Shown here piece after piece: positions 7,060 to 17,870 of a stretch of DNA of 32,000 nt (positions are counted from its first letter, which is position 1; every line of letters starts with the position of its first letter). The stretch comes from Desulfotalea psychrophila LSv54 (GTDB taxonomy: Bacteria; Desulfobacterota; Desulfobulbia; Desulfobulbales; Desulfocapsaceae). The notes beneath the pieces are model-generated. The model was given only the letters and a program-made list of their open reading frames with translations, did no database searches and was not told the origin of the DNA. The DNA lies in assembly GCF_000025945.1 (NCBI RefSeq), contig NC_006138.1, positions 2,580,001-2,612,000 of the forward strand, in the 5' to 3' direction. Made by a program: the position numbers and the translations under genes.

Positions 7060-8694
7060 TTAAACCTGACACCAATATATGCGTACATGTTCGGGACTTC
7101 CGGCAAGACGGGGGAAGTCCATGGGAGGGGACATTTGCCGGACAAGAGAAAAATGTTTTTCCAGTTCAGCCCGGTAATAGCTGGCATTGCCGCCACGATG
7201 ATTATTGGCAAAGAGGGCCACACCCCTAACAGAGAGTAACATACGTATCTGCCTGGCCAGTTCAGGCCACTGCTTTTCCACATGAAAGGCCTGTCCCTTG
7301 CCGGCTGAGGCAAAGACAGGAGGATCACAGATAATGAGATCCCAAGGGGTAAACTCCTCCGGATTTCTAGCATATTTGCGTTCCTGGCGCTGGAGCCATT
7401 TGCAGACATCTTCCTTAATAAACTTTCCCCGGCCACTCTCATCCAGGTGGTTAAGGGCAAAATTACCTTTTCCCCGGGCAAGGGTTGAGCCGGCAAGATC
7501 CACTGAAAAAACAACTTCAGCCCCGCCTGCCAAGGCGGCAGCAGAAAAAGAACAGGTAAAGGAAAAGAGATTTGCCACCCGTCTCCCCTCTGCGATCTGC
7601 CACACCCGCCTGCGTGAATCACGCTGATCGAGAAAGAGACCTACATGCTGAGACTCATTAATATTTACCTCAAAGTCAAGTAGGTGCTCGTGGGCGATAT
7701 TGCTGGACGAGATCGGCGCTCCCCACTGAATAACATCGTGGATCAGTTTCTTTTGGTGAGGGTTCTGGGCATGTCTGCGCAAAAGAGCACCCTGCCAGGC
7801 AAGCTTGTCCCGCAGATAATCCAGGGCAGGTTCAAGCAACGTTCGCAACTGCGTCGATGTCTTCTCTTCTGAAAATCCCGTGATAGAGAGGGTATTGTCA
7901 TAGAGATCAATACTTACCGGCAGATCAAGCTCGCCCCGTTGAATAAGACGATAGCTATTGGTTATAAGCTGGAGCCAACCCAAGCGACGTTCCCAAGCTA
8001 TGGCCGTATCTATTAATACCTTATCTCTCTGCTTAAGAACAAAGGAGAAAGAGTCCGGGGTGGAAGAGATAAATTCATGCCCGCTTTCGGCCAACCTAAT
8101 GGAGTGACAGTGGAGAAAGAGTCGGGCAAAAGGGCTATCGGCCCCATCGCCGACGATGGCTATGCCTGATTCTTCCGCAAATTCCTGAACACGCCTGCAA
8201 CAGCTTAGGGTTGCCGCCTCATAGAGAGAGTAATCCCTGCCCTCTTCAAGGAAACGAAAACGAACAGACTCCTCTGTTATGGAATTATCCCTTTCTACCA
8301 GCCAGCTGCCATCTTCCTCCGTCTGCCCGCGGTATCTCTTAGCTGAGATAAAGTGATATTTTTTCTCAGCAATTTTAACAGGTTGATCATTTTCTGCCTT
8401 CTCAATTTGATTCTTTCTGCGAAGAAGGAGAACACCACTGCAGCTCTTGGTAAGAGATGAGTAGAGGTCTATCTGATACTGCAGATGCAGAGCCAACCAC
8501 TCTGTGATGCCCACCTCTCCCTCTGTCATTGCCTGAGAAGAAAAACCTGTTGGTTTATCAACCACAAGTAGCTGGGCATCCTTATATATAATCGGTGAAC
8601 CTGTGGTCTTTTTCATGGTAAATTTTATGGGGTAAAAATTTTTTTCATTAAAAACTGCCTGCTTCCTCTCCTGCAAAGCAGATATATATAGCAT
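7060..8694 (-). CDS. Fusion protein: N-terminal RluA-like pseudouridine-synthase fold (catalytic Asp missing) plus C-terminal RlmI/RlmK-like class I SAM-dependent RNA methyltransferase
   Basis: The N-terminal part has IIYKDAQLLVVDKPTGFSS, then SSLTKSCSGVLLL in place of HRLDxxTSG, then IVGD...LFLHCHSI. The C-terminal part has GLFLDQRDSRRRV, NLFSFTCSFSAAALAGGA, VFSVDLA and DLIICDPPVFA. The start is uncertain: 8694 or 8616 (MKKTTGSP). Confidence 0.75.
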   Translation of the reverse strand: MLYISALQERKQAVFNEKNFYPIKFTMKKTTGSPIIYKDAQLLVVDKPTGFSSQAMTEGEVGITEWLALHLQYQIDLYSSLTKSCSGVLLLRRKNQIEKAENDQPVKIAEKKYHFISAKRYRGQTEEDGSWLVERDNSITEESVRFRFLEEGRDYSLYEAATLSCCRRVQEFAEESGIAIVGDGADSPFARLFLHCHSIRLAESGHEFISSTPDSFSFVLKQRDKVLIDTAIAWERRLGWLQLITNSYRLIQRGELDLPVSIDLYDNTLSITGFSEEKTSTQLRTLLEPALDYLRDKLAWQGALLRRHAQNPHQKKLIHDVIQWGAPISSSNIAHEHLLDFEVNINESQHVGLFLDQRDSRRRVWQIAEGRRVANLFSFTCSFSAAALAGGAEVVFSVDLAGSTLARGKGNFALNHLDESGRGKFIKEDVCKWLQRQERKYARNPEEFTPWDLIICDPPVFASAGKGQAFHVEKQWPELARQIRMLLSVRGVALFANNHRGGNASYYRAELEKHFSLVRQMSPPMDFPRLAGSPEHVRIYWCQV

Positions 8695-8820: not shown

Positions 8821-9237
8821 TTATGAATCCACGGCCTGCGGAAGTACAGGCTTTATATCGACCACCGGCGTGCCATCAATCGCCTCTATCGGCCCCACCC
8901 TCAACCTATTACCGCTGATCTGCAAAACCGTCACCCGATGCAGGCCAAGTGGGTTTGGTCTGTCGGGGGAGCGGGTAGAAAAGACCCCCATAATAGGCCT
9001 GCCCCTGTCCCCGCGGGGATGCAGTTTCAGTATATCGCGCTGAGACCTGTGCAACCAGGTGATGAGGATGATTTCACTGCCCACGGCCATACCTTCAAGC
9101 CCCTCTACCAAGGCCGGATCCACCTCAAGCCAGGCATCGGGCGCGCCCTCACTTCCCTGACTGGGCGCCGCTTTACGACTGACCAGATCGGAACGGATAA
9201 TACCAATGGGATTGATCTGATAGATGCCTTCGCTCAT
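8821..9237 (-). CDS. trmO: TsaA/TrmO-family SAM-dependent tRNA methyltransferase (YaeB-like, short form)
   Basis: INPIGIIRS...GSEIILITWLH...RGVFSTRSPDRPNPLGLHRVTVL...L.V..IEAIDGTPVVDIKP is the characteristic UPF0066/TsaA beta-barrel signature. Confidence 0.8.
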   Translation of the reverse strand: MSEGIYQINPIGIIRSDLVSRKAAPSQGSEGAPDAWLEVDPALVEGLEGMAVGSEIILITWLHRSQRDILKLHPRGDRGRPIMGVFSTRSPDRPNPLGLHRVTVLQISGNRLRVGPIEAIDGTPVVDIKPVLPQAVDS

Positions 9238-9295
9238 AGTCTCCTTGCCTACGCTTATTACTTAAAGCCAGTATCATTTATTGGGGAGTTATTTT

Positions 9296-9994
9296 TTAAT
9301 CAATAGATTTACTCATATTTTTCAACTCATTGTTGGCTAACAGGAGGATATTTGAAAATAAATCTTTGAGAGCACGTAACTCCGCTTCAGTATTTTCATT
9401 CAAATCTTTCTCGATGTAACTGTGTGCGTGAATATTGTCATCGATGTCTCTTAGTAATTTTGTTATCTCTTTTCTTTGTGTTTCTGTTGACAGCAGTAAA
9501 ATATATTCTGATACAGTAGTACTGTATCCTCTTAATCTTCCCTTGTTGTATGTTAGCTTTTCCTCTAGTATTGTTCGCTGTTTCTGTAATTCATAATCTC
9601 TACCGTCATCCCTGTGCTCCCATATTCCACGTCCTTCTGTTCCAAATATTCGGTATGAATCCAATTCTTTTTTTATCTTTTTTAAATTTGCTAGCTCATC
9701 TTCTTTAAGGATTTCTTTAGCGTATCTTGCGGCAGTAGCTATTTTGCTAATTGCCGTTCTAGAATTTTGGTGGTCAATAGCTTTTTTCCAATCATTTTTT
9801 GCAATCCATGCAACACCAAAAAGTCCAATAGTCCCAAGCCCTGCCAGCCATGTACCCAAATCTGAGAAACTCCCCAGCATATCACTGCGTATTTCTGACG
9901 AGCTTGTAAATGTGGCATAGATTACCCCAATAATAACGACAAGATTTACCAGACAAGCTATGATGATATTATGCTTTTTCCAAATCGTCTTCAT
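9296..9994 (-). CDS. Hypothetical membrane protein: two N-terminal TM helices plus a charged helical/coiled-coil domain of about 165 aa
   Basis: This is a 232-aa uninterrupted ORF in an AT-rich stretch where stop codons are frequent. The TM segments are IIIACLVNLVVIIGVIYATF and LGTWLAGLGTIGLFGVAWIA. The remainder is rich in K, E and R. I recognise no family. Confidence 0.6.
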   Translation of the reverse strand: MKTIWKKHNIIIACLVNLVVIIGVIYATFTSSSEIRSDMLGSFSDLGTWLAGLGTIGLFGVAWIAKNDWKKAIDHQNSRTAISKIATAARYAKEILKEDELANLKKIKKELDSYRIFGTEGRGIWEHRDDGRDYELQKQRTILEEKLTYNKGRLRGYSTTVSEYILLLSTETQRKEITKLLRDIDDNIHAHSYIEKDLNENTEAELRALKDLFSNILLLANNELKNMSKSID

Positions 9995-10299
9995 TTTTTA
10001 ATCATGCTCACTCACTTAAACAGGTTATTATGCCAATTTTTTTATTTAACAACATTAAAACTTACAAAATTAGCGCTAAACATACCATATAGTTCAGTGT
10101 TTTTGGGAAATCTGATTATTCTGCGATTGAATCTCTTCTCGGTGCTAATTATTTTTTCTTTGGTCGATTTTTTCCCTCTGCAAATTTAGAGCCGTTACAA
10201 AGTTTTTTAAATCCTTTACATGCCAGGCAACCGCATTCAATACACCACCCTCATCTTGAAATTCTATCTTAAGTAAGTGCGTGTTAATCGATTTGCCTA

Positions 10300-10665
10300 A
10301 AAAGCTCGAAGGCGTCACACACCTTTTTATTTTTTAAGAGGAATACACAGTTCCATCCTGGGATGTAATCTTAAAAAATACAATTCACTCTAGACAAGGA
10401 CAAGAACACCTTTGCCTCTGACTTGCTTCCCCTTGAACGATTCCATACCAAAATACTCAGCAAAATTATCATGGCATAGAATGTCTCCAGAGCTGTATCT
10501 TTTAGCTAAAGTCTCACGATATCCTTTACGGATCTTATGCATTTCCAGAAAAAGCATCACAAATCCAACCACAAGCAGCACGGCTATGGCAGCCATAGAA
10601 TCGTTGCAGTGCTGTTTAACCAAGACACCCCTATACCTGATGCTCCAAAATCCATTTCCCCTCAC
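10300..10665 (-). pseudogene. Small TM plus PH/GRAM-like protein gene, apparently interrupted by in-frame stops
   Basis: The ORF reads ...MAAIAVLLVVGFVMLFLE...GKQVRGKGVLVLV and stops at a TAG. The same frame then continues SELYFLRLHPRMELCIPLKK before the next stop. That matches the G.GVL.LT...L.F......IPL pattern of small bacterial PH-like domains. Confidence 0.35.
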
Positions 10666-10809
10666 CTTATTTATAAATGTACGAGCCTATCATTACCTTA
10701 CACGTATGCCTATCAAAAACTCATCGTAGTTTTCACATAAGCAGTCTACTAATGATAGTAGTTAATCGGTGTTTGAATAAAAAACATCATCGAAGAAGGC
10801 CAACAGTTT

Positions 10810-11928
10810 TTATTTGTGTAGCAAGGTCGTCTGTTTAACTAATTTTTCAACATAATCTTCGGCGCCATCGAAATGATATGTTATGCTCCGATTACCAAAA
10901 AAACGTTTCCAGTGTTTCTCGACCGCTTCTTTAGCATCGGGATTCTTACAAGAATCAACAACCTCAATCTCTACGTTTTTCCGAGCCATTCGTGAAAGCA
11001 ATTGTTTCATTTCAAAATCTGCACTTGATAAAGAGTAACCAATAAAGACTAATCTTGAAGCTTCTGATATTTCTATACCTGCATTTTGCCAAATAATCTT
11101 ATATTGAGGGTTCGATAAGTCTTTAATAAAAGTAGGCATTATAAGGTTTGAAACAAGAACATGGTTTCCTTTTTCTTCAGAAAAATTTATATCGCAATGT
11201 CGGCATGACTTCGGATCTTTAAAATTATGTATTCCTTCTTTTGTGTTAAAAGTTGCGTATATCCTCATACATCTTGGGCACTGCAACCAATTCAAAGAAC
11301 CATGCAGTTTTAACAACTTAACGTTAAAGCCTCCAGTGCCAAGTATTTCTAAGCCTGGTTTAATAGAGTCATCATCTTTATTTTTGGAGCTGATATAACA
11401 ACAGTAGTCTACAACAGCATTATATTTACCCTCACGAATAGAGTCGTTAATTGAATTATCAAGTAATATATCCCAGTTAGCACTGATAACACTCACGGGA
11501 TCTTTTTCATGATATGCCCCTGACATTCTAACTGACGATTTTTCAGTTAAGTATCGTGCAAATTTATTTATGTACTCTTTGGAAACAGATGGGTCATTAA
11601 GAATCAGTAAAATGGTTTGGCCCACAACATAAAATATTGCCTCTCGAACTTCCATAATTTCCCCAAAGCCAATACCTCGATATTGAATACTGTCACTAAA
11701 ACATCGATCAAGAGGAGTAAAAATGTCTTCTAATTCAACATTTGAAAATTGCTCTTCAGCAATATTTAATTGCTTAATTAAAAAATTCTTGAATAGCTCA
11801 AATCTCTTTTCGTCATAATTTGATGAATTTTCGGTATAGAGCTCAAAAGCTTTACCAATTAGTGAAGCTTGAGTTGGTGCTCCCGCTTCTACTGAAAATC
11901 CTGCACCTAAGATATAAACAGTTTTCAT
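10810..11928 (-). CDS. Stand-alone SIR2-like (sirtuin/SIR2_2-type) NAD-binding protein with a Cx2C...Cx2C zinc ribbon
   Basis: It has VYILGAGFSVEAGAPT (GAGxS..G.P), VISANWDILL (the T/S-x-N-x-D motif), LKLHGSLNW (catalytic His), CPRC...CRHC and LVFIGYSLSSADF. Start 11928 (MKTVYILG) is preferred because AAGAGGA lies 5 nt upstream. Confidence 0.8.
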   Translation of the reverse strand: MKTVYILGAGFSVEAGAPTQASLIGKAFELYTENSSNYDEKRFELFKNFLIKQLNIAEEQFSNVELEDIFTPLDRCFSDSIQYRGIGFGEIMEVREAIFYVVGQTILLILNDPSVSKEYINKFARYLTEKSSVRMSGAYHEKDPVSVISANWDILLDNSINDSIREGKYNAVVDYCCYISSKNKDDDSIKPGLEILGTGGFNVKLLKLHGSLNWLQCPRCMRIYATFNTKEGIHNFKDPKSCRHCDINFSEEKGNHVLVSNLIMPTFIKDLSNPQYKIIWQNAGIEISEASRLVFIGYSLSSADFEMKQLLSRMARKNVEIEVVDSCKNPDAKEAVEKHWKRFFGNRSITYHFDGAEDYVEKLVKQTTLLHK

Positions 11929-12045
11929 TATTTTCCTCTTATCTTTCGGACAACATTCAACCATTTTGCAGTAACTATCTGAAAATACTAACTCTACCCA
12001 AAATAGGCAAGGGATGTCTCTAACTGATTACTGGATGAAAAATGG

Positions 12046-12412
12046 CGAAGGTCGGACAAGGTCTGCGCTGGGAACAAAACGGGCCTCTGCCCCACCACAA
12101 TGGGCAGAACAGAGAAGAGATCTAGCATTAAGATGATGCCAAATTTTGCCAGAAGAACGCGCACGGACAGAAAGGTGAGTCCGCCCATCAGATTAAGAAG
12201 GGCTGAGTTGCGTAAGTTACCAGTTCGCCTGTTTAGAAGGTAGAGAGTGAGGGCAATAATCAGGGGAAAAAAAACTGCCCTTAGGACCGAGCATACTGAA
12301 TATGCATCCGGAAAAGACGACCCCATATCCGAGAGAAAAATAGGCCCCATCCATAAAGATGGGAGAGAAGGAGGCGGGTCAGAGGGTGAGCAACCCCCCG
12401 TGCCGGACGCCT
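12046..12412 (-). pseudogene. Degraded copy of the 3' end (plus terminator region) of the NRAMP-like gene at 16269..17516
   Basis: The nucleotide alignment to 16190-16650 has several internal deletions. The peptide [25 protein letters not shown] matches [25 protein letters not shown] in the intact gene. The stop codon is lost, and the track ORF 11994..12350 is a chimera reading across this fragment. Confidence 0.8.
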
Positions 12413-12475
12413 AGGTCGTTCACAGCCCGCATAGGTCGTTGATCTCCTACCAATCTATGTTTTTTCAATAAATTA

Positions 12476-13729
12476 TTATTGAAGTGAACCTAATCTGTAT
12501 TCTTCAAATGTGTGGGCTTGGCACTGTAAAACTAAATCATTAATTTCATATTTATGCTGTTCAATTACCTCAAACATATCAGGAGAAATTGATGCTGACA
12601 TATTATCCCTGATAATATCGAACGCTACATCAACGGATAAGCTTTCTCGATAAGGTCTTTCTTCCATTAGCGCAGAAATTATATCTGAGCATGATAAAAT
12701 CTTCACGCCTTCATCAAGACTTGTATCATCTAATGAAAATGGATATCCCGTTCCATCAGATTTTTCATGATGCCGCTCAGCCCACGTTACAATTTCACTA
12801 AACCAATCAGAAGTATTAAGTTCATTCAAGATTTGCCCCGTATAATAAGCATGTAATTTAATTAAATTAAATTCCTCATCATTAAGGGGACCATTTTTTT
12901 CGATTAACCTGGGGTCAATTCCAATTTTGCCAATATCATGCAGGTACCCAGCAATCAATAATTTTTTACATTTTTCTTCAGAAAACCCAAAATATCCACC
13001 AATTAAAGAGGATAGATGCGCGACTGTATATGAATGCGATGCGGTAAATTTACTGCGAAAGTCAATTATTCTTGACATTGTCAAGGTAAACTCTATAATA
13101 TCGTCAATTGTAAGCTCAAAATCAATTGCTCCAAAATCGATCTTTCTAAGTAGTTGCTCCATCTCCAAATTATTCATTTCAATCCAGAATATATCTGCTT
13201 TTGACACTTCCTCAAATGCTTTAAAAACTTCAGGATGAAAGGTTGTTTCCGCTTTTTCACGAATTTTTTCTGTAACCATACTTTTTTGATTTGTAATAAA
13301 TTCGTTAGGGGAGACCAGTATATCAACCCTGTCAGCAAGATGAATAATATGGCTTTGTAATAATATTTCTCCCTCTTCCGCATTTAATGAATCTTGATAC
13401 TTGATGTGATGATGCTTGATAATTTGGGAAATGTTCTTAAACACATCAAGCGATGCCAACATACGGTATCCCATCATACAATGCGGAGCTGGATTTATGA
13501 CATCCTCCTGAACAATCATATCTCGTTCCTGCACAGATAAGGCACCAATATCATGAAGCGCTGCCGCAATAACAAGTTCCACTAACTCAGTATTATTTAA
13601 GTTGAGTTTTTTTCCAATATAATATGAAACGACCGCAGTTCTTCTATGGTGCGATTTCAGCAGATAATTAAAACTATCAATAGATTTAATCATTGGTACA
13701 GCTAATTCTCTTAAGGATAACTTTTTCAT
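12476..13729 (-). CDS. Tandem HD-domain protein: N-terminal HD domain without GYP plus C-terminal HD-GYP domain (putative c-di-GMP phosphodiesterase)
   Basis: Domain 1 has SHHRRT...AAALHDIGAL...KHHH...HLADRVD. Domain 2 has SHSYTV...GYLHDIGKIGI...ERHHEKSDGTGYPFSL...CSDIISAL. Confidence 0.8.
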   Translation of the reverse strand: MKKLSLRELAVPMIKSIDSFNYLLKSHHRRTAVVSYYIGKKLNLNNTELVELVIAAALHDIGALSVQERDMIVQEDVINPAPHCMMGYRMLASLDVFKNISQIIKHHHIKYQDSLNAEEGEILLQSHIIHLADRVDILVSPNEFITNQKSMVTEKIREKAETTFHPEVFKAFEEVSKADIFWIEMNNLEMEQLLRKIDFGAIDFELTIDDIIEFTLTMSRIIDFRSKFTASHSYTVAHLSSLIGGYFGFSEEKCKKLLIAGYLHDIGKIGIDPRLIEKNGPLNDEEFNLIKLHAYYTGQILNELNTSDWFSEIVTWAERHHEKSDGTGYPFSLDDTSLDEGVKILSCSDIISALMEERPYRESLSVDVAFDIIRDNMSASISPDMFEVIEQHKYEINDLVLQCQAHTFEEYRLGSLQ

Positions 13730-13752
13730 GTTATGTTTCCTAAAATTCTAGA

Positions 13753-13773
13753 GGGCAAGAACAATGCTTGCCC
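13753..13773 (-). terminator. Weak candidate hairpin between the MCP and HD-GYP genes
   Basis: GGGCAAG-N7-CTTGCCC, followed on the minus strand by TCTAGAATTTT. The stem is short and there is no clean T-run. Confidence 0.25.
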
Positions 13774-13937
13774 CTTAAAAAGCATTCTATTTTATGATAT
13801 CAGGACACTAAAAACTGAGTTCAAGTAATAAATGCGCCATTCCTTCAGCAATAAAATCCTATTTAACCTCCTCATTCTGGTAAAACAAATTCACGTTCTC
13901 CCAGAATTATCGGAAGGGATTCAGTTATTACAAGCGC

Positions 13938-15584
13938 CTACTTTATATTAAATTCCTTAACCAAGACAGAGAGCTTATCTGCTGATCTATTAAGATCTTT
14001 GGCATTGGCAGCAACCAGCGTACTGGATTCATTCATTGCAGTAGACTTTAAATCAACCTCTGAGATATCATTTGCAACCTCTCCAGCCACAGCTGAACTC
14101 TGAGATATATTTTTAGTCACTTCCTGGATACCTTCGGAAGCCTGGGCAACATTGATCGAAATTTCTTGGGTAGTGGCTGCCTGCTCATCCATAGCCACCG
14201 CAATATTCCCTACTATTTCATCTACTTCGTTTATAGTATTGGCAATGCCACTTATTTCAGTCACCGTCAGTGATGTTGATGATTGAATTGCTTCAATTTT
14301 AATACGAATATCTCCTGTTGCATCAGCAGTCTGTTTGGCCAAGTTTTTTATTTCATTGGCAACAACAGCAAATCCTTTTCCTGCTTCACCTGCTCTAGCG
14401 GCCTCAATGGTTGCGTTTAACGCCAACAAGTTGGTCTGGTCAGATATTTCCGTTATTGTCTCAGTCACTTTACCAATTTCATTGGCAGCATTTCCAAGTT
14501 CGTTTATACGCTCTGAGGCCTGTTTAGATTGATTAACAGCAGCACCAGTTATATTACGGGCATTTTCTGTATTGCTAGATATTGTAATAATATTTTCTGT
14601 TATTTCTTGTACCGAGTCCGCCATGATAGCTACATTTGTCGAGGTCTCCTCAACAGCAGCAGCGACTGAATCCATATTAGAGCTCAATTGTTCAGCCGCA
14701 GCCGCAACAGAACTTGAACGCTCTGCAACACCCCCCGCCCCCCGAGAAACTTCTGACGCTGCTTTTGATAACTCTTCAGATGTTTCACCAAGTTCTTTGG
14801 AGGTGATCCTGATTCCCCTAATCATTTTTTCAAGATTAGCAGCCATACAATCAAGGCTTACTCCAATTTGTCCAAGCTCGTCATCACCAGTTATCCCAGA
14901 CTCGACCGTCAAATTACCATTTCCTAAAAGTTCTGAAAATTTATTTACCTTATTCAGTCTCAAAACTATAGAGGAGGTAAGCATAAAGGCTCGGACAAAA
15001 ATTATCGCTCCTAATACAGCCAGCGTGATTTGTATTTTGAGCAACAAAAGCACCAACTCTTCAGCCTGAGCTTGCATCATACCAACAGCTTTATTCATTT
15101 CTTGCAGAATACGGATATTATCCGTTTTAATTGTTTTCCTATCAGTTTCTGAGGCAGTTCCCATAAGCGCCCTCTCTATTACAGGTGAAAACTGCTGCCA
15201 CAGTCTGTCCACTTTTGCCAATTGCCCTTTAGCTGGTTCCTGAGCAATAGGGCAATCTCGATACAAAGTATCCCTGAGGTCAAGAGATAAAGGCGCTCTC
15301 CCGGAATTTTCAAGAGCCGTTAGAGTCATAGAAAAGACCTTCATCGTCGACCGGACTTGGGCAGCGGCATTTTTTTTGGACTCTACTGCTTGGCTGGGGA
15401 TGATTGAGAATTGCAGAAACTCTTTCGTCATCTTTTGTGAAAGCATCCTTTGCCGGCCAGCAAGATTTATCACTAATCCATCATTTTTTTGTTTGTTCGT
15501 AATAGAGAAAGTAGCCAAAAACATAGCAACTATAATGACAGCTAAAGAGACTGTTATTAGCTTTAATTTCAAGTTAATACTCAT
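13938..15584 (-). CDS. Methyl-accepting chemotaxis protein with a PilJ/NarX-type N-terminal sensor, HAMP and MCP signalling domains
   Basis: An N-terminal TM segment is followed by [19 protein letters not shown] (the PilJ-N/NIT-like P-box) and a second TM segment. The canonical signalling hairpin is [35 protein letters not shown]. Confidence 0.9.
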
Positions 15585-16268
15585 TTTTTTTCCTGTAAAA
15601 AAGATTATGCTTTATTAGATAGTGTTAACCAAATCAGTGGTAAATCCCCTGAGGTAACAGATCCTTGATTGCAAATTAAGTGGGCTGAGGAGGCATTGCG
15701 ACAACAGTGAAATGAGCCAAAGACTTGATGGGAAAATCTGGACAAATCATCGCGAGAAAGGTGCAAAGGTGAATAGAGGATTAATACAGAGCAAGTTATA
15801 AGAAAATATCTCGCATTGGCTGATCAGCAGAGGCTATCATTTTACGTATGCGTATAAAAATTTTTGAGGCAAAAAGTCGTGCTATTCTAACATCTTTTGC
15901 CGTATTCAGGAAGACAAAAATCAAGATGATGGATTGAACAAGACTGAGTTCAAGCAATACACCTATCAGTAAGTGCTTATAACAGTGTCAGTCCTTCTAA
16001 AATTTTTCTTCTTTTTCAAATTAAGTATGTTTCACTTGCCACCTCTTGACTGCCAAGATTGGCAAGCAAGAGGGCAACAATTCGCTCCCTGTAGCCACAG
16101 CAACGAGCTATCGGCTCAAGGCAGACTCCACCTGCAAGAGAGGTGTTTGGCCAAAGCAAACAATTCTTATCGTTTTTCATGCTATTTCCAGCCACAGAAA
16201 CAAGGCCAGCCTCTGCCCCCATAGTGGGCGGAACAGAGAGGGGCAGAGGAGTTAGAATGGGACGACAA

Positions 16269-17516
16269 TCACATGATGCCAAATTTTGCCAAAAGAAAGC
16301 GTACAGCCAGAAACGAGGTGACCAAAAAGGTGAGTCCACCCATCAAATTAAGAAGGGCTGAGTTGCGTAAGCTGCCAGTCCGTCTATTCAGAAGATAGAG
16401 AATAATGGCAATGATTAGGGGTGTACCGGTAAGACCTAAGGCCAGCATCAGAGGGAGGAGAAGGAAAAAGCTGCCCTTAACGAAAGGGCCGAGCATACTG
16501 AGCAGACATCCGGCAAAGACTACCCCGGCAAAACGTCTATCCTTAACATCGAGCTGCCAGCCCATCTTATCCGAGAGAAAATAGGCCCCGGCCATAAAGG
16601 TGGGAGAGAGGGTCGAGAGAGTGGCTGCCCAGAGGCCGACCATAAAGATCTTCATGGCGCTGTCACCCAGAAGGGGTTTAAGGGCCAAGGCCGCATCCGT
16701 TGCCCTCTTCACCGCAATTCCGTTGGGATGAAGGACAGCGACATCCACCAAAAAGATGGCCACACTGTAGAGACCAAAGGCCATACCCATGGAGGAAAAG
16801 GTATCAAAACGGGCCAGAGACAGATCTTTTATTTTCCAGCCCCTAGCATTGGTATTATAGGTATGCATGCCGATAATGGTGATATGAACGGCCCCACCCA
16901 TGATGGCCGCCATCATCAGGGCCGCATCGATTCCGCCGGGGAAATTGGGCAGGAGGCCCTCACCAATGGCCGGGAGAGAGAGATCCGCCATAAAGAGGGT
17001 GGCCATAAAACAGGCCACCACAAAGATCACCAAGACCTTGCACAGTGTTTCAAAGTTACGATATCCCCTCCGAACCAGAAAGAGGGCAACCAGAACTCCG
17101 TAGAGTACGCCCCAATACGGGGTGTCCACACCGGTAATGAGAGAGGTGACCCCAGCTAAGGCATTCATCAAAACCATGGCGGCAAGCCAGGTGGCCAAGA
17201 GGGCATCTATGGTCAAAATCCAGGCCCACCGTTTTCCCAGATGTTTTTCGGTGGCGGCAATGATTCCCATCCCCTCTAAAACACCCACCCGGGCAGCCAG
17301 GTACTGGGTCGTGGTGCCAAACACCGCACTGAGGATTACCACCCAGAGCATCTTATAGCCATAGGTCGCCCCGGCAATGGCAACACTGGCCAGGGTCGCA
17401 GGCCCGCAGGCCACGGCGCTGATAATCCAGGCAGGACCCATATTTTTAATATACCTACAGTATCTTTTTGGCAGAGAACCTGCCTCTTGCTGAGCTGTAC
17501 TTACTTCGTTTTGCAT
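16269..17516 (-). CDS. NRAMP-fold (MntH-related) transporter lacking the canonical metal-coordinating motifs. It is under TPP-riboswitch control.
   Basis: A 415-aa polytopic protein. [38 protein letters not shown] aligns to the NRAMP TM1 region [45 protein letters not shown] aligns to the TM6 region GATVMPHVIYLHS. Confidence 0.85.
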   Translation of the reverse strand: [415 protein letters not shown]

Positions 17517-17705
17517 GGTCCATCTCCTTGAGTTGCCATGGGGGTTAGGCGGGGACTGGCACAGGAGATAGAGAAAGGCTCTGTCGGGCGGTCAGAAAAA
17601 TCCAACAACAAAGGCGCTCTCCGAGTTCCCTGCGACAGTATGAGCTGTATCAGGTTCGATGGGTATAATCTCAGCCCTGCCGTACAGGACACCCCAATCG
17701 GAATA
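17517..17705 (-). promoter_or_regulatory. TPP (THI-box) riboswitch with an SD-sequestering expression platform
   Basis: The minus strand from 17701 to 17621 reads CCGAUUGGGGUGUCCUGUACGGCAGGGCUGAGAUUAUACCCAUCGAACCUGAUACAGCUCAUACUGUCGCAGGGAACUCGG. This matches the thiM-type aptamer blocks GGGGUGC, GCUGAGA, AUACCC, ACCUGAU and CG.AGGGAA. ATCTCCT (17569-17563) is complementary to the SD AGGAGAT (17528-17522). Confidence 0.9.
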
Positions 17706-17870
17706 AGGGACTACTAGTAACATATTAGAAAAAAAGCAATTTTTTTCTGCCCCCGCTTCTGGTCCTTACCTACCCAAAGACTCAGCCTATATACCTAAAA
17801 GAAATGCCAAGAAAAGGTTAGACCAGACAATCTATCAATGCCCTTACTCCATTAAATGGGCAACTACCTT

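What the first reader, a model, noticed from the sequence alone, without database searches (positions are those of the whole stretch)
9296..11964. AT-rich accessory stretch with a stand-alone SIR2-like protein and a 2-TM/coiled-coil protein: candidate defence or conflict module
Base composition drops abruptly just after trmO (about 9290) and stays AT-rich through about 15600. One 60-nt line inside the SIR2 gene that I counted is about 33% GC.

The SIR2-like ORF keeps every NAD-pocket element: GAGFSVEAGAP, SANWD, and the catalytic His in LKLHGS at codon 11304-11302. Unusually for SIR2_2-type proteins, it also has a sirtuin-style Cx2C-N21-Cx2C zinc ribbon. It lacks the FR dipeptide of canonical deacetylases (APTQAS where IPTFR is expected). 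It also has an insert of about 125 aa between motif I and NxD.

SIR2-family NADases act as effectors in Thoeris, DSR1/2, SIR2-HerA and SPARSA systems. Here there is no TIR, HerA, Argonaute or STAND partner.

Instead, a decayed small TM/PH-like gene and a 232-aa protein lie on the same strand. The 232-aa protein has two N-terminal TM helices and a long charged helical domain, a general build seen in membrane-disrupting abortive-infection effectors. I do not recognise the combination as a described system.

Two caveats apply. The genes are about 0.8 kb apart, so co-transcription is unproven. The protein could also be a divergent protein deacylase.
Basis: partly seen in the sequence, partly recalled or inferred. 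Interest (0 to 1): 0.7.

Follow-up and report, generated by a model that had tools for sequence, protein, structure and literature searches.

The report
Stand-alone zinc-ribbon SIR2 gene, no partner
The AT-rich stretch holds one intact, horizontally acquired gene for a small NAD-binding sirtuin-like enzyme from an uncharacterised family that travels alone on phage satellites and defence islands, so it is a plausible one-gene anti-phage system; the neighbouring membrane protein is an unrelated orphan and the small gene between them is a dead copy of a local gene.

Summary
The window is Desulfotalea psychrophila chromosome. The sequence observations hold, down to the His codon at 11304-11302. 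Three corrections apply:
- The real start is ATG 11928, giving 372 aa.
- A GC-normal Nramp gene fragment interrupts the AT-rich tract.
- The '125-aa insert' is a spacing, not an insert.

The two-gene module is not supported.
- The 232-aa 2-TM protein is an orphan. It has two partial relatives among 1.84 billion representatives and none in 68 SIR2-family loci.
- The small ORFs are a pseudogene of a Desulfotalea/Desulforhopalus-restricted GRAM-domain family.

The real feature is the SIR2-like gene.
- It belongs to an uncharacterised family of more than 1,200 proteins. Sequences are 41-76% identical across at least seven phyla.
- The NAD-pocket motifs, catalytic His and Cx2C-N21-Cx2C ribbon are invariant.
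- No neighbour is conserved.
- It is the terminal cargo of P4-like satellites in E. coli. It also sits in prophage or integrase elements and defence islands.
- In 11 of 66 loci it lies beside a complete SIR2_2-HerA pair.
- Fold and profile comparisons place it nearest the HerA-associated defence Sir2, which lacks the zinc ribbon.

Most likely it is a self-contained NAD-consuming defence effector; this is inferred, not shown. It is a new variant of a known kind, of moderate interest.

The parts
10810..11928 (-). CDS of a 372-aa stand-alone zinc-ribbon SIR2_2-like protein; this is the only conserved functional unit of the finding
   Evidence: The ORF is listed. It is 100% identical to the D. psychrophila protein P0001 (372 aa), and 1,217 homologues were found. 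The AF2 model has pLDDT 78 and pTM 0.82. Foldseek's best hits are the Sir2 of SIR2-HerA, at E 2e-12. hhalign against HerA-linked SIR2_2 gives probability 96.9%.
11934..11940 (-). Shine-Dalgarno AAGAGGA, 5 nt before ATG 11928; it marks the true start, not ATG 11964
   Evidence: Sequence read. Homologues all begin MKTVYILGAGFS.
11875..11907 (-). Motif I, GAGFSVEAGAP(TQ): the NAD-binding Rossmann glycine loop. The sirtuin 'FR' is replaced by an invariant P..Q
   Evidence: Coordinates. G8 A9 G10 F11 S12 P18 Q20 are at least 95% conserved in 64 sequences.
11470..11484 (-). SANWD, the NxD motif of the NAD pocket
   Evidence: Coordinates. N151 W152 D153 are at least 95% conserved. The motif aligns to TNYD of HerA-linked SIR2_2.
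11398..11403 (-). Invariant Cys-Cys pair (VVDYCC), outside the zinc ribbon; role unknown
   Evidence: C176 and C177 are 100% conserved in 64 sequences.
11302..11304 (-). Codon of the catalytic His in KLHGSLNW (His221 of the 384-aa ORF, His209 of the 372-aa protein)
   Evidence: Coordinates. The residue is 100% conserved. It aligns to the invariant KxHGS of SIR2_2 and to the His region of Sir2-Af2.
11194..11280 (-). Cx2C-N21-Cx2C zinc ribbon, immediately after the catalytic His
   Evidence: Coordinates. All four Cys are 100% conserved. This stretch is the only part matched by Pfam SIR2 and NCBIfam CobB models. It is absent from adjacent HerA-linked SIR2_2 proteins.
10148..10655 (-). Pseudogene of a 171-aa TM + GRAM-domain family (two frameshifts, one in-frame stop); not part of the SIR2 unit
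   Evidence: tblastn of P0124, P0126 and P0128 gives three frame segments at 74-92% identity, with a stop in the middle segment. The family is restricted to Desulfotalea/Desulforhopalus-like genomes.
9296..9994 (-). 232-aa orphan protein with an N-terminal TM hairpin and a long helical tail; ends 58 bp upstream of trmO; not linked to the SIR2 family
   Evidence: There are no Pfam, NCBIfam or PADLOC hits.
12070..12400 (-). Decayed 3' fragment of a second Nramp-family gene with its terminator hairpin; a GC-normal patch bounding the SIR2 gene on its upstream side
   Evidence: Direct repeats D1-D4 and D11 are 81-89% identical to 16199-16612. The hairpin is at 12115-12084. GC is 0.481.

Best explanation
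Positions 9296-11964 are not an operon. They are a patchwork of an orphan membrane gene, a dead GRAM-domain gene and one intact, horizontally acquired gene at 11928-10810.

**What the gene encodes.** The product is a 372-aa SIR2-fold, NAD-binding enzyme. It has three parts:
- a defence-type (SIR2_2-like) Rossmann core;
- an enlarged helical subdomain;
- a canonical-type zinc ribbon inserted right after the catalytic His.

**How it is carried.** The family moves between phyla as a solitary one-gene cassette. It is found on P4-like satellites, in prophage or integrase elements and in defence islands.

**Most likely function.** It is a self-contained abortive-infection-type effector. On an infection cue, which it senses itself through the helical subdomain, the zinc ribbon or a change in oligomeric state, it consumes NAD+. 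The chemistry would be NADase activity or ADP-ribosyl transfer, using the N151/D153/H209 pocket, and the result would be a halt to phage replication.

**Shown:**
- the gene is intact;
- the SIR2 fold;
- conservation of the pocket and the ribbon;
- absence of any conserved partner;
- accessory, mobile-element or defence context.

**Inferred:**
- NAD+ consumption;
- phage triggering;
- self-sensing;
- the defence phenotype.
For: **Family and conservation.**
- 1,217 homologues were found. The best 120 are 61-76% identical and come from Gamma- and Betaproteobacteria, Nitrospira and Bacteroidota.
- There are 68 genome loci, extending to Bdellovibrionota, Acidobacteriota, Verrucomicrobiota, Planctomycetota and Lentisphaeria at 41-66% identity.
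- 78 positions are at least 95% conserved. They include GAGFS, P18/Q20, NWD, H209, the four ribbon Cys and GYSLP.

**Fold and homology.**
- The AF2 model has pTM 0.82.
- The best PDB matches are the Sir2 subunits of E. coli and Paenibacillus SIR2-HerA (E 2e-12 to 1e-9, TM about 0.55). Human FAM118B follows, then canonical sirtuins.
- hhalign against HerA-linked SIR2_2 gives probability 96.9%, E 1.6e-10, over 266 columns.
- The best PADLOC hits are weak matches to models named only 'SIR2' (PDLC04076-04096), numbered next to PADLOC's HerA models PDLC04097-04107, plus one pAgo-associated SIR2 model.

**No partner.**
- Neighbour clustering gives at most 11 of 66 loci for any cluster.
- The flanking +/-1 and +/-2 genes hit 102 and 84 different Pfam families. 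The most frequent is found in 5.

**Context.**
- The gene occurs in 13 of 5,426 E. coli genomes.
- In two E. coli lineages it is the last gene of a P4-like satellite, after the primase. The satellite hotspot holds Drt3a/b in one lineage and SIR2 + HerA in the other.
- One viral contig places it in an integrase and CI-repressor element. Another places it beside P2-like tail genes.
- In Nitrospira allomarina it lies in an island with MazG-like, SLFN-like helicase/nSTAND3, HNH, SIR2_2, deaminase and REase genes.
- 29 of 66 loci carry at least one recurrent defence or mobile-element marker within 8 kb. HerA and type I RM subunits are confirmed by PADLOC.

**In this window.**
- GC is 0.34 against 0.47 in the flanks.
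- There is a strong Shine-Dalgarno sequence.
- All family-invariant residues are retained.

**Precedent.** A small single-protein Sir2 ('sole-Sir2') degrades NAD+, and a homologue of it protects against T2 and T4 (bioRxiv 10.1101/2024.12.27.630466).
Against: - There are no experimental data for any member.
- The family is unusually conserved for an immune gene: mean column identity is 71% among proteobacterial, Nitrospira and Bacteroidota members.
- It keeps the zinc module, which the literature associates with deacylases rather than NADases (PMC12700824).
- Many loci have ordinary housekeeping neighbours. One Pseudomonas locus is embedded among GNAT acetyltransferase genes.
- In D. psychrophila itself there is no neighbouring defence gene, integrase or transposase.
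- The 44% defence/mobile-element figure has no matched control.
- How a 372-aa single-domain protein would sense phage is unknown.
Confidence: 0.55

Rival explanations
1. It is a divergent NAD-dependent protein deacylase, or a mono-ADP-ribosyltransferase regulating a host protein. On this view it is an accessory metabolic or regulatory sirtuin rather than an immune effector.
For: - It has a canonical Cx2C-N21-Cx2C ribbon directly after the catalytic His. That stretch is the only one matched by Pfam SIR2 and CobB models.
- The literature ties the zinc module to deacylation (PMC12700824).
- Sequence conservation is very high.
- GNAT acetyltransferases are among the immediate neighbours in 3 of 122 cases. 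There are five GNAT genes around the Pseudomonas copy.
- JGI annotates members as 'NAD-dependent SIR2 family protein deacetylase'.
Against: - It scores below the Pfam SIR2 gathering threshold (20 vs 24 bits). It scores 14-20 bits against the CobB deacylase models, whose cut-offs are 221-320 bits.
- The cofactor loop FR is replaced by an invariant P..Q.
- Global fold and profile are closer to defence Sir2 than to any deacylase.
- Distribution is rare and patchy, 13 of 5,426 E. coli genomes, and the gene rides on satellites and islands.
- The GNAT neighbours are not homologous between loci.
Confidence: 0.2
2. One reading: the SIR2-like protein and the 232-aa 2-TM/coiled-coil protein form a two-gene defence module, with an NADase plus a membrane-disrupting effector or sensor.
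For: - The two genes are on the same strand in the same AT-rich patch.
- The 2-TM protein has an N-terminal hairpin and a long helical tail.
- Membrane proteins of another family (8xMP, PF24838) occur within 8 kb of the SIR2 family in 6 of 66 loci.
Against: - The 2-TM protein is an orphan and is absent from all 68 family loci.
- It has no similarity to 8xMP in Pfam.
- The genes are 815 bp apart, with a pseudogene between them.
- The 2-TM gene abuts trmO with a 58-bp gap.
- The family has no conserved neighbour.
Confidence: 0.04
3. The protein works with SIR2-HerA (Nezha) systems as an auxiliary, back-up or decoy Sir2. It would not be fully autonomous, and the D. psychrophila copy would be an orphaned remnant or would act with a HerA system elsewhere in the genome.
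For: - 11 of 66 loci have a complete SIR2_2 + HerA pair adjacent. The genes are often tightly packed on the same strand, with gaps of 0-45 nt in L018, L030, L036 and L050.
- These loci are dispersed across the family tree, which implies repeated association.
- An E. coli P4-like satellite carries both.
- The nearest structural and profile relatives are HerA-bound Sir2.
Against: - 55 of 66 loci have no HerA within 8 kb, and there is none in the window.
- In the other E. coli satellite lineage the hotspot holds Drt3 instead.
- The gene's position relative to the pair varies: upstream, downstream, convergent or divergent. This fits defence-island clustering as well as it fits a functional link.
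Confidence: 0.12
4. It is mobile-element cargo that benefits the element rather than the host. Examples would be a toxin or addiction gene, or a function in satellite/helper-phage interference or counter-defence.
For: - It holds a fixed terminal position after the primase in two diverged P4-like satellites whose hotspot contents differ.
- It is present in an integrase/repressor element and next to P2-like tail genes.
Against: - It is absent from 50,697 phage records. Only 3 of 2.9 million viral contigs carry it.
- Most loci are chromosomal with no evident element.
- No antitoxin-like partner is present.
Confidence: 0.08

Closest known systems
Sir2 subunit of the SIR2-HerA (Nezha) anti-phage system (PDB 8uae, 8suw, 8sub, 8sxx, 8j4u, 8w9l, 8wld)
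   Same: - Best structural match over the whole length: about 400 aligned columns, E 2e-12, similar size of 360-400 aa.
- Profile-profile homology at 96.9% probability.
- Aligned motifs: GAGxS, TN(Y/W)D, KxHGSLxW and GYS(F/L)xD.
- Frequent physical neighbour.
   Different: - Only 14-18% identity.
- No HerA partner in the window or in 55 of 66 loci.
- Carries a Cx2C-N21-Cx2C zinc ribbon that the HerA-linked Sir2 proteins lack.
- Falls far below PADLOC and NCBIfam membership scores.
Canonical sirtuin deacylases (CobB, Sir2Tm, Sir2-Af2; Pfam PF02146)
   Same: - NAD-pocket motifs and catalytic His.
- A zinc ribbon of the same spacing in the same topological position. This stretch gives the only Pfam and CobB hits.
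   Different: - Below the Pfam gathering score.
- The FR of the cofactor loop is replaced by P..Q.
- There are about 100 extra residues between motif I and the His: motif I is at residues 14-32 and the His region at 211-259 here, against 17-35 and 108-155 in Sir2-Af2.
- Weaker fold match (E 1e-6 and worse, TMq about 0.4).
- Accessory or mobile-element distribution rather than core.
sole-Sir2 (single-protein CRISPR-supervised immune system; bioRxiv 10.1101/2024.12.27.630466)
   Same: A small stand-alone Sir2 protein acting without partner genes. NAD+ to ADPR conversion was shown in vitro, and a homologue protects against T2 and T4.
   Different: sole-Sir2 is about 440 aa, with the Sir2 domain at the C-terminus and a distinct N-terminal part, and it is DSR2-like. 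Here the Rossmann motif starts at residue 8 and the nearest relatives are HerA-type. No sequence was available for a direct comparison.
DSR1/DSR2, Thoeris ThsA, SPARSA Sir2-APAZ, Avs5 and Kongming KomC (SIR2 NADase effectors fused or paired with sensors)
   Same: A SIR2-fold NAD-consuming effector logic and defence-island residence.
   Different: - No SLOG, APAZ or STAND domain, no large C-terminal sensor domain and no TIR, pAgo or KomA/B neighbour.
- None of these appears among the top 50 fold matches.
Human FAM118B/FAM118A (SIR2_2-type filament-forming sirtuins)
   Same: Third-best structural class (9r3e, E 3e-7). A small single-domain SIR2_2-like protein whose activity depends on self-assembly (PMC12700824).
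   Different: FAM118B lacks the zinc module. It is vertebrate-specific, and identity is 12%.

Membership tests
Canonical sirtuin / Pfam SIR2 (PF02146), CobB deacylases (NF040867, NF001753) | Score at or above the curated family cut-off | tested here: not met
   PF02146 scores 20 bits against a cut-off of 24, and only aa 212-269 match. The CobB models score 14-20 bits against cut-offs of 221-320. Only 2 of the 120 listed homologues carry a precomputed PF02146 hit.
Canonical sirtuin / Pfam SIR2 (PF02146), CobB deacylases | GAGxS, NxD and catalytic His of the NAD pocket | tested here: met
   GAGFS, NWD and H209 are all at least 95-100% conserved.
Canonical sirtuin / Pfam SIR2 (PF02146), CobB deacylases | Cx2C-N~20-Cx2C zinc-binding module after the catalytic His | tested here: met
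   CPRC-N21-CRHC; all four Cys are 100% conserved in 64 sequences. Metal binding itself was not tested.
Canonical sirtuin / Pfam SIR2 (PF02146), CobB deacylases | Cofactor-binding loop GIPxFR | tested here: not met
   The loop reads GAPTQA, and P18 and Q20 are invariant in the family.
Canonical sirtuin / Pfam SIR2 (PF02146), CobB deacylases | NAD-dependent lysine deacylase activity | not testable with these tools
   This needs a biochemical assay.
SIR2_2-type defence sirtuins (PF13289) | Match to the Pfam SIR2_2 model | tested here: not met
   There is no PF13289 hit at E <= 0.01. None of the 120 homologues has one precomputed. The adjacent HerA-linked proteins do hit it.
SIR2_2-type defence sirtuins (PF13289) | Homology to bona fide members over the whole domain, including KxHGSxxW | tested here: met
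   hhalign gives 96.9% probability, E 1.6e-10, over 266 columns. The best Foldseek matches are the Sir2 subunits of SIR2-HerA.
SIR2_2-type defence sirtuins (PF13289) | Absence of the zinc module, as stated for SIR2_2 proteins in PMC12700824 | tested here: not met
   The ribbon is present and invariant. It is absent in 11 of 11 neighbouring SIR2_2 proteins.
SIR2-HerA / Nezha system | Adjacent HerA ATPase gene forming a two-gene operon | tested here: not met
   There is no HerA in the window. Where HerA is nearby (11 of 66 loci), it already has its own SIR2_2 partner.
NCBIfam NF042942 'SIR2 family anti-phage-associated protein' | Score at or above the cut-off of 500 bits | tested here: not met
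   The score is 17.3 bits.
Thoeris ThsA, DSR1/DSR2, SPARSA, Avs5, Kongming | Fused sensor domain (SLOG, large C-terminal domain, APAZ, STAND) or obligatory partner gene (ThsB TIR, pAgo, KomA/KomB) | tested here: not met
   The 372-aa protein is a single SIR2 domain. There is no conserved neighbour, and no such genes lie in the window.
sole-Sir2 (single-gene CRISIS system) | A protein of about 440 aa with a C-terminal DSR2-like Sir2 domain and a distinct N-terminal region; NADase activity | tested here: inconclusive
   The architecture differs, because the Sir2 motif I starts at residue 8. No sole-Sir2 sequence was available for alignment. Activity is not testable here.
Anti-phage defence system (generic) | Enrichment next to known defence genes or on mobile-element hotspots | tested here: inconclusive
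   29 of 66 loci have a recurrent defence or mobile-element marker within 8 kb. The gene is on P4-like satellites in E. coli and in a rich island in Nitrospira. No matched background control was run.
Anti-phage defence system (generic) | Protection against phage when expressed heterologously | not testable with these tools
   This needs an experiment.

The most novel reading that the evidence does not exclude
This family would be a previously unrecognised class of one-protein immune sirtuin: a SIR2_2-type NADase that has kept or regained the canonical zinc ribbon and uses it, together with the invariant CC pair and the enlarged helical subdomain, as a built-in phage sensor. Its repeated placement beside SIR2-HerA would reflect a functional partnership, for example a back-up that fires when phage inhibitors or NAD+-reconstitution pathways neutralise SIR2-HerA. 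It would also be a living intermediate between NADase-type and deacylase-type sirtuins.
Probability: 0.15. Interest if true: 0.75.

Novelty: new variant of a known kind. Interest (0 to 1): 0.5.

Why it matters
SIR2 NADases are a major effector class in bacterial immunity. Nearly all characterised ones depend on a partner or a fused sensor (HerA, TIR/SLOG, pAgo, STAND, or the DSR C-terminal domains).

A 372-aa, partner-less family that is widespread and strongly conserved would be one of the smallest SIR2-based defence units. It rides on phage satellites and defence islands. It would pose a clean question: how does a bare sirtuin domain sense infection?

It also contradicts the generalisation that defence-type (SIR2_2) sirtuins lack the zinc module. 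That bears on how deacylase sirtuins evolved from NADases.

An E. coli homologue, WP_000859441, exists on a P4-like satellite, so the hypothesis can be tested immediately.

For genome annotation, the result removes a false two-gene module. It also identifies a GRAM-domain pseudogene and an Nramp gene remnant in D. psychrophila.

Tried and rejected
- **Sequence search against PDB** with the protein and with the family profile gave nothing below E 0.5. Only fold comparison worked.
- **Phage records:** no match. **Plasmids:** only 24-27% identical SIR2 proteins. **BFVD:** only giant-virus sirtuins, weakly.
- **Exact-sequence look-ups** for the 384-aa ORF, P0122 and P0128 were not on record. P0123 lies on a 1.9-kb contig and is uninformative.
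- **AF2 of the 2-TM protein** from a 3-sequence alignment gave pLDDT 56, too poor for a fold search. I did not run one.
- **Pfam on the reconstructed pseudogene** gave no hit. A homology search identified it instead.
- **Promoter and terminator scan** of 9100-12500 was at or below shuffle expectation and gave no operon evidence either way.
- **Other scans:** no tandem repeats in 9000-16500, no Rfam family in the finding's region and only one tRNA, far away.
- **A conserved GNAT partner** for the deacylase reading: the Pseudomonas GNAT genes have no homologues in the other 68 loci.
- **Synteny:** an intact GRAM orthologue in a Desulfotalea MAG lies in an unrelated context, so the island boundaries could not be defined.
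- **Literature:**
  - The accession WP_000859441 returned nothing.
  - The searches and papers read describe no system matching this family.
  - The only precedent found is sole-Sir2.
- **8xMP as an analogue of the 2-TM protein** was considered and rejected, because there is no Pfam match.

Full report
**Source and layout.** The window is Desulfotalea psychrophila chromosome. The SIR2-like ORF is 100% identical to a D. psychrophila protein on a 3,523,383-bp contig. All genes around the finding lie on the minus strand:
- an RlmK-like SAM methyltransferase, 7060-8694;
- TrmO, 8821-9237;
- a 232-aa ORF, 9296-9994;
- two small ORFs, 10145-10318 and 10390-10665;
- the SIR2-like ORF, 10810-11964;
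- a 118-aa ORF that is really an Nramp gene fragment, about 12070-12400;
- an HD-GYP protein, 12476-13729;
- a methyl-accepting chemotaxis protein, 13938-15584;
- an intact Nramp-family gene, 16269-17516.

The rest of the window encodes housekeeping functions. I found no integrase, transposase or HerA.

**Observation check.**
- Composition drops as described. GC is 0.359 for the 2-TM gene, 0.367 for the spacer and 0.343 for the SIR2 gene, against 0.470 to the left and 0.456 to the right.
- The tract is interrupted at 11965-12475, where GC is 0.481. There, direct repeats 81-89% identical to the 3' end and terminator of the intact Nramp gene reveal a decayed gene remnant.
This includes the His codon at 11304-11302 and CPRC-N21-CRHC.
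- The start needs correcting. ATG 11928 has AAGAGGA five nt upstream. All homologues, and the NCBI model, begin MKTVYILGAGFS. The protein is therefore 372 aa.
- The '125-aa insert' is really the long spacing between motif I and NxD, which is an enlarged helical subdomain (helices at residues 20-132 of the model).

**The 2-TM protein.**
- It has no Pfam, NCBIfam or PADLOC match.
- A word-indexed search of 5.8 billion proteins finds only itself.
- An exhaustive phmmer run over 1.84 billion representatives adds two partial relatives. They share only the N-terminal hairpin: 61% identity over aa 2-93, and 39% over aa 15-73.
- tblastn against all 68 loci that carry the SIR2 family finds nothing.
- Its AF2 model is all-helical but of low confidence (pLDDT 56).
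- Its stop codon lies 58 bp upstream of the trmO start on the same strand. If it belongs to any transcription unit, trmO is the likelier partner.

**The small ORFs.** A reconstruction of the two ORFs retrieves a family of about 171-aa proteins. The named members are from Desulfotalea and Desulforhopalus. They include an intact D. psychrophila paralogue that UniRef names 'GRAM domain-containing protein'. tblastn shows the window copy (10148-10655) split over three frames, with an in-frame stop in the middle segment. It is a pseudogene. An intact orthologue in a Desulfotalea MAG sits in an unrelated housekeeping context.

**The SIR2-like protein: family.**
- The homology search returns 1,217 proteins. 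The best 120 are 61-76% identical. They come from Pseudomonas, Pantoea, Pectobacterium, Aeromonas, Photobacterium, Methylomonas, Limnobacter, Chromobacterium, Nitrospira and Polaribacter, and are mostly annotated 'hypothetical'.
- A scan of one genome per GTDB species gives 68 loci. These extend to Bacteroidota (the majority), Bdellovibrionota, Acidobacteriota, Verrucomicrobiota, Planctomycetota and Lentisphaeria at 41-66% identity.
- In a 64-sequence alignment, 78 positions are at least 95% conserved. They are GAGFS, P18, Q20, E67-D68..T71-P72..D74, N151-W152-D153, VVDYCC, K..HGS.NW, all four ribbon cysteines, H244 and GYSLP.AD.
- The D. psychrophila copy keeps all positions that are invariant in the 21-sequence alignment.

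**The SIR2-like protein: classification.**
- Curated models do not claim it. Pfam SIR2 scores 20 bits (cut-off 24) and matches only the His plus ribbon stretch. There is no SIR2_2 hit. The CobB models score 14-20 bits against cut-offs of 221-320. NF042942 scores 17 bits against 500. The PADLOC SIR2 models give E 1e-8 at best.
- No PDB sequence is detectable by HMMER.
- The AF2 model (pLDDT 78, pTM 0.82) matches the Sir2 subunits of the SIR2-HerA complexes best: E 2e-12 to 1e-9, about 400 aligned columns, TM about 0.55, 14-18% identity. Human FAM118B comes next, then canonical sirtuins.
- A profile-profile comparison with the 11 HerA-linked SIR2_2 proteins found in the family's own loci gives probability 96.9%, E 1.6e-10, over 266 columns. 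It aligns GAGxS, TN(W/Y)D, KLHGSLxW and GYS(L/F). The ribbon segment has no counterpart, and none of those 11 proteins has a CxxC.
- The family is thus a SIR2_2-like defence-type sirtuin that carries a canonical-type zinc ribbon. That is at odds with the statement that SIR2_2 proteins lack this module (PMC12700824).

**Genomic context of the family.**
- I called ORFs in all loci and clustered them. No neighbour cluster occurs in more than 11 of 66 loci.
- The immediate (+/-1) and next (+/-2) neighbours hit 102 and 84 different Pfam families. The commonest is found in only five proteins. The gene is a solitary unit.
- The recurrent neighbours are defence or mobile-element genes:
  - HerA with its own SIR2_2 partner, in 11 loci;
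  - the type I RM subunits HsdM, HsdS and HsdR;
  - the 8xMP membrane protein, in 6 loci;
  - DUF4917, KTSC, DUF4062-TPR and P4-type primase.
- 29 of 66 loci carry at least one such marker within 8 kb. I ran no matched control.
- In E. coli the gene occurs in 13 of 5,426 complete genomes. In both lineages examined it is the last gene of a P4-like satellite, downstream of the primase. The order is integrase, hotspot, ogr/delta, psu and so on, primase, this gene.
  - In CRE10 the hotspot holds Drt3a/b, with Avs2 next door.
  - In 65COLEC it holds SIR2 + HerA.
- Viral contigs place it in an integrase/CI-repressor element and beside P2-like tail genes. It is absent from 50,697 phage records.
- In Nitrospira allomarina it sits among MazG-like, SLFN-like helicase/nSTAND3, HNH, SIR2_2, deaminase and REase genes.
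- Other loci are unremarkable. An Aeromonas locus has DUF2971, FRG and SUKH genes. A Pseudomonas locus has five GNAT genes around it. Those GNATs have no homologues in other loci.

**Association with SIR2-HerA.** The 11 HerA-adjacent loci are scattered over a neighbour-joining tree of the family. The arrangement varies: upstream, downstream, convergent or divergent. In several loci the genes are packed with gaps of 0-45 nt. This means repeated co-localisation. It could be a functional link, or simply two systems sharing hotspots.

**Interpretation.**
- The finding's region is a mosaic of an orphan gene, a dead native-family gene and one imported gene, bounded by a dead Nramp remnant. It is not a two-gene module.
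- The imported gene is best read as a self-contained SIR2 effector. The fold, the invariant NAD pocket and the invariant ribbon are shown. So are the absence of a partner and the accessory, mobile-element or defence context.
- NAD+ depletion on infection and self-sensing are inferred from its nearest relatives, and from the 'sole-Sir2' precedent for a partner-less Sir2 NADase.
- The main rival is a divergent deacylase or ADP-ribosyltransferase. The zinc module and the unusually high conservation favour that rival.

**Novelty and score.** I found no description of this family in curated HMM libraries or in the searchable literature. It is a new variant of a known kind: a SIR2-based immune effector that is partner-less and ribbon-bearing. 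Interest is moderate, 0.5. The module as proposed falls away. What remains is a widespread, testable candidate one-gene system with an evolutionary twist.

Noticed in passing
window 17609-17706 (-) and 16269-17516 (-): A TPP riboswitch (RF00059, 69.5 bits, full length) lies directly upstream of the intact Nramp-family transporter gene (Pfam Nramp, E 1.9e-79). An Nramp-type transporter under thiamine-pyrophosphate control suggests a thiamine or precursor transporter rather than a metal transporter.
   Followed up: no
window 12070-12400 (-), with hairpin 12115-12084: This is a decayed 3' fragment of a second copy of that Nramp-family gene, including its terminator hairpin. It is 81-89% identical at the nucleotide level to 16199-16612. 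It forms a GC-normal patch (0.48) between the SIR2 gene and the AT-rich HD-GYP gene, so the HD-GYP + MCP block is bracketed by diverged direct repeats.
   Followed up: partly
window 10148-10655 (-): This is a pseudogene of a 171-aa TM + GRAM-domain family whose named members are from Desulfotalea and Desulforhopalus. It has two frameshifts and one in-frame stop. An intact paralogue (P0128, 177 aa) exists elsewhere in D. psychrophila.
   Followed up: yes
L014, L018, L023, L024, L025, L030, L036, L040, L043, L050, L066; also L073 (E. coli 65COLEC): The zinc-ribbon SIR2 family sits next to a complete SIR2_2 + HerA (Nezha) pair in 11 of 66 species-representative loci. These loci are dispersed over the family tree, and the genes are often packed with gaps of 0-45 nt. 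In E. coli 65COLEC the same P4-like satellite carries both. A KTSC-domain gene of about 70 aa often lies between HerA and the zinc-ribbon SIR2 gene.
   Followed up: partly
L069 12001-13098 and L073 12001-13098 (E. coli CRE10 and 65COLEC): In P4-like satellites the family member occupies a fixed cargo slot downstream of the primase, at the attR end. This slot is separate from the known int-psu hotspot, whose content differs between the two lineages (Drt3a/b versus SIR2 + HerA).
   Followed up: partly
family alignment, residues C176-C177 (window 11398-11403) and C76: An invariant Cys-Cys pair in VVDYCC is 100% conserved in 64 sequences. A further Cys in LDRC is 86% conserved. Both lie outside the four-Cys ribbon. 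They could form a second metal or redox site; their spatial proximity could not be checked.
   Followed up: no
L078 5651-7723 and 11917-14011 (Pseudomonas): The Pseudomonas copy is embedded among five GNAT acetyltransferase genes. This is the one context that fits a deacylase reading. These GNATs have no homologues in the other loci.
   Followed up: partly
window 12476-13729 (-) and 13938-15584 (-): A tandem-HD (HD-GYP-type, HD_5) protein at GC 0.345 and a PilJ/HAMP methyl-accepting chemotaxis protein at GC 0.414 extend the low-GC region. They look like a separate acquired signalling block rather than part of the SIR2 unit.
   Followed up: no
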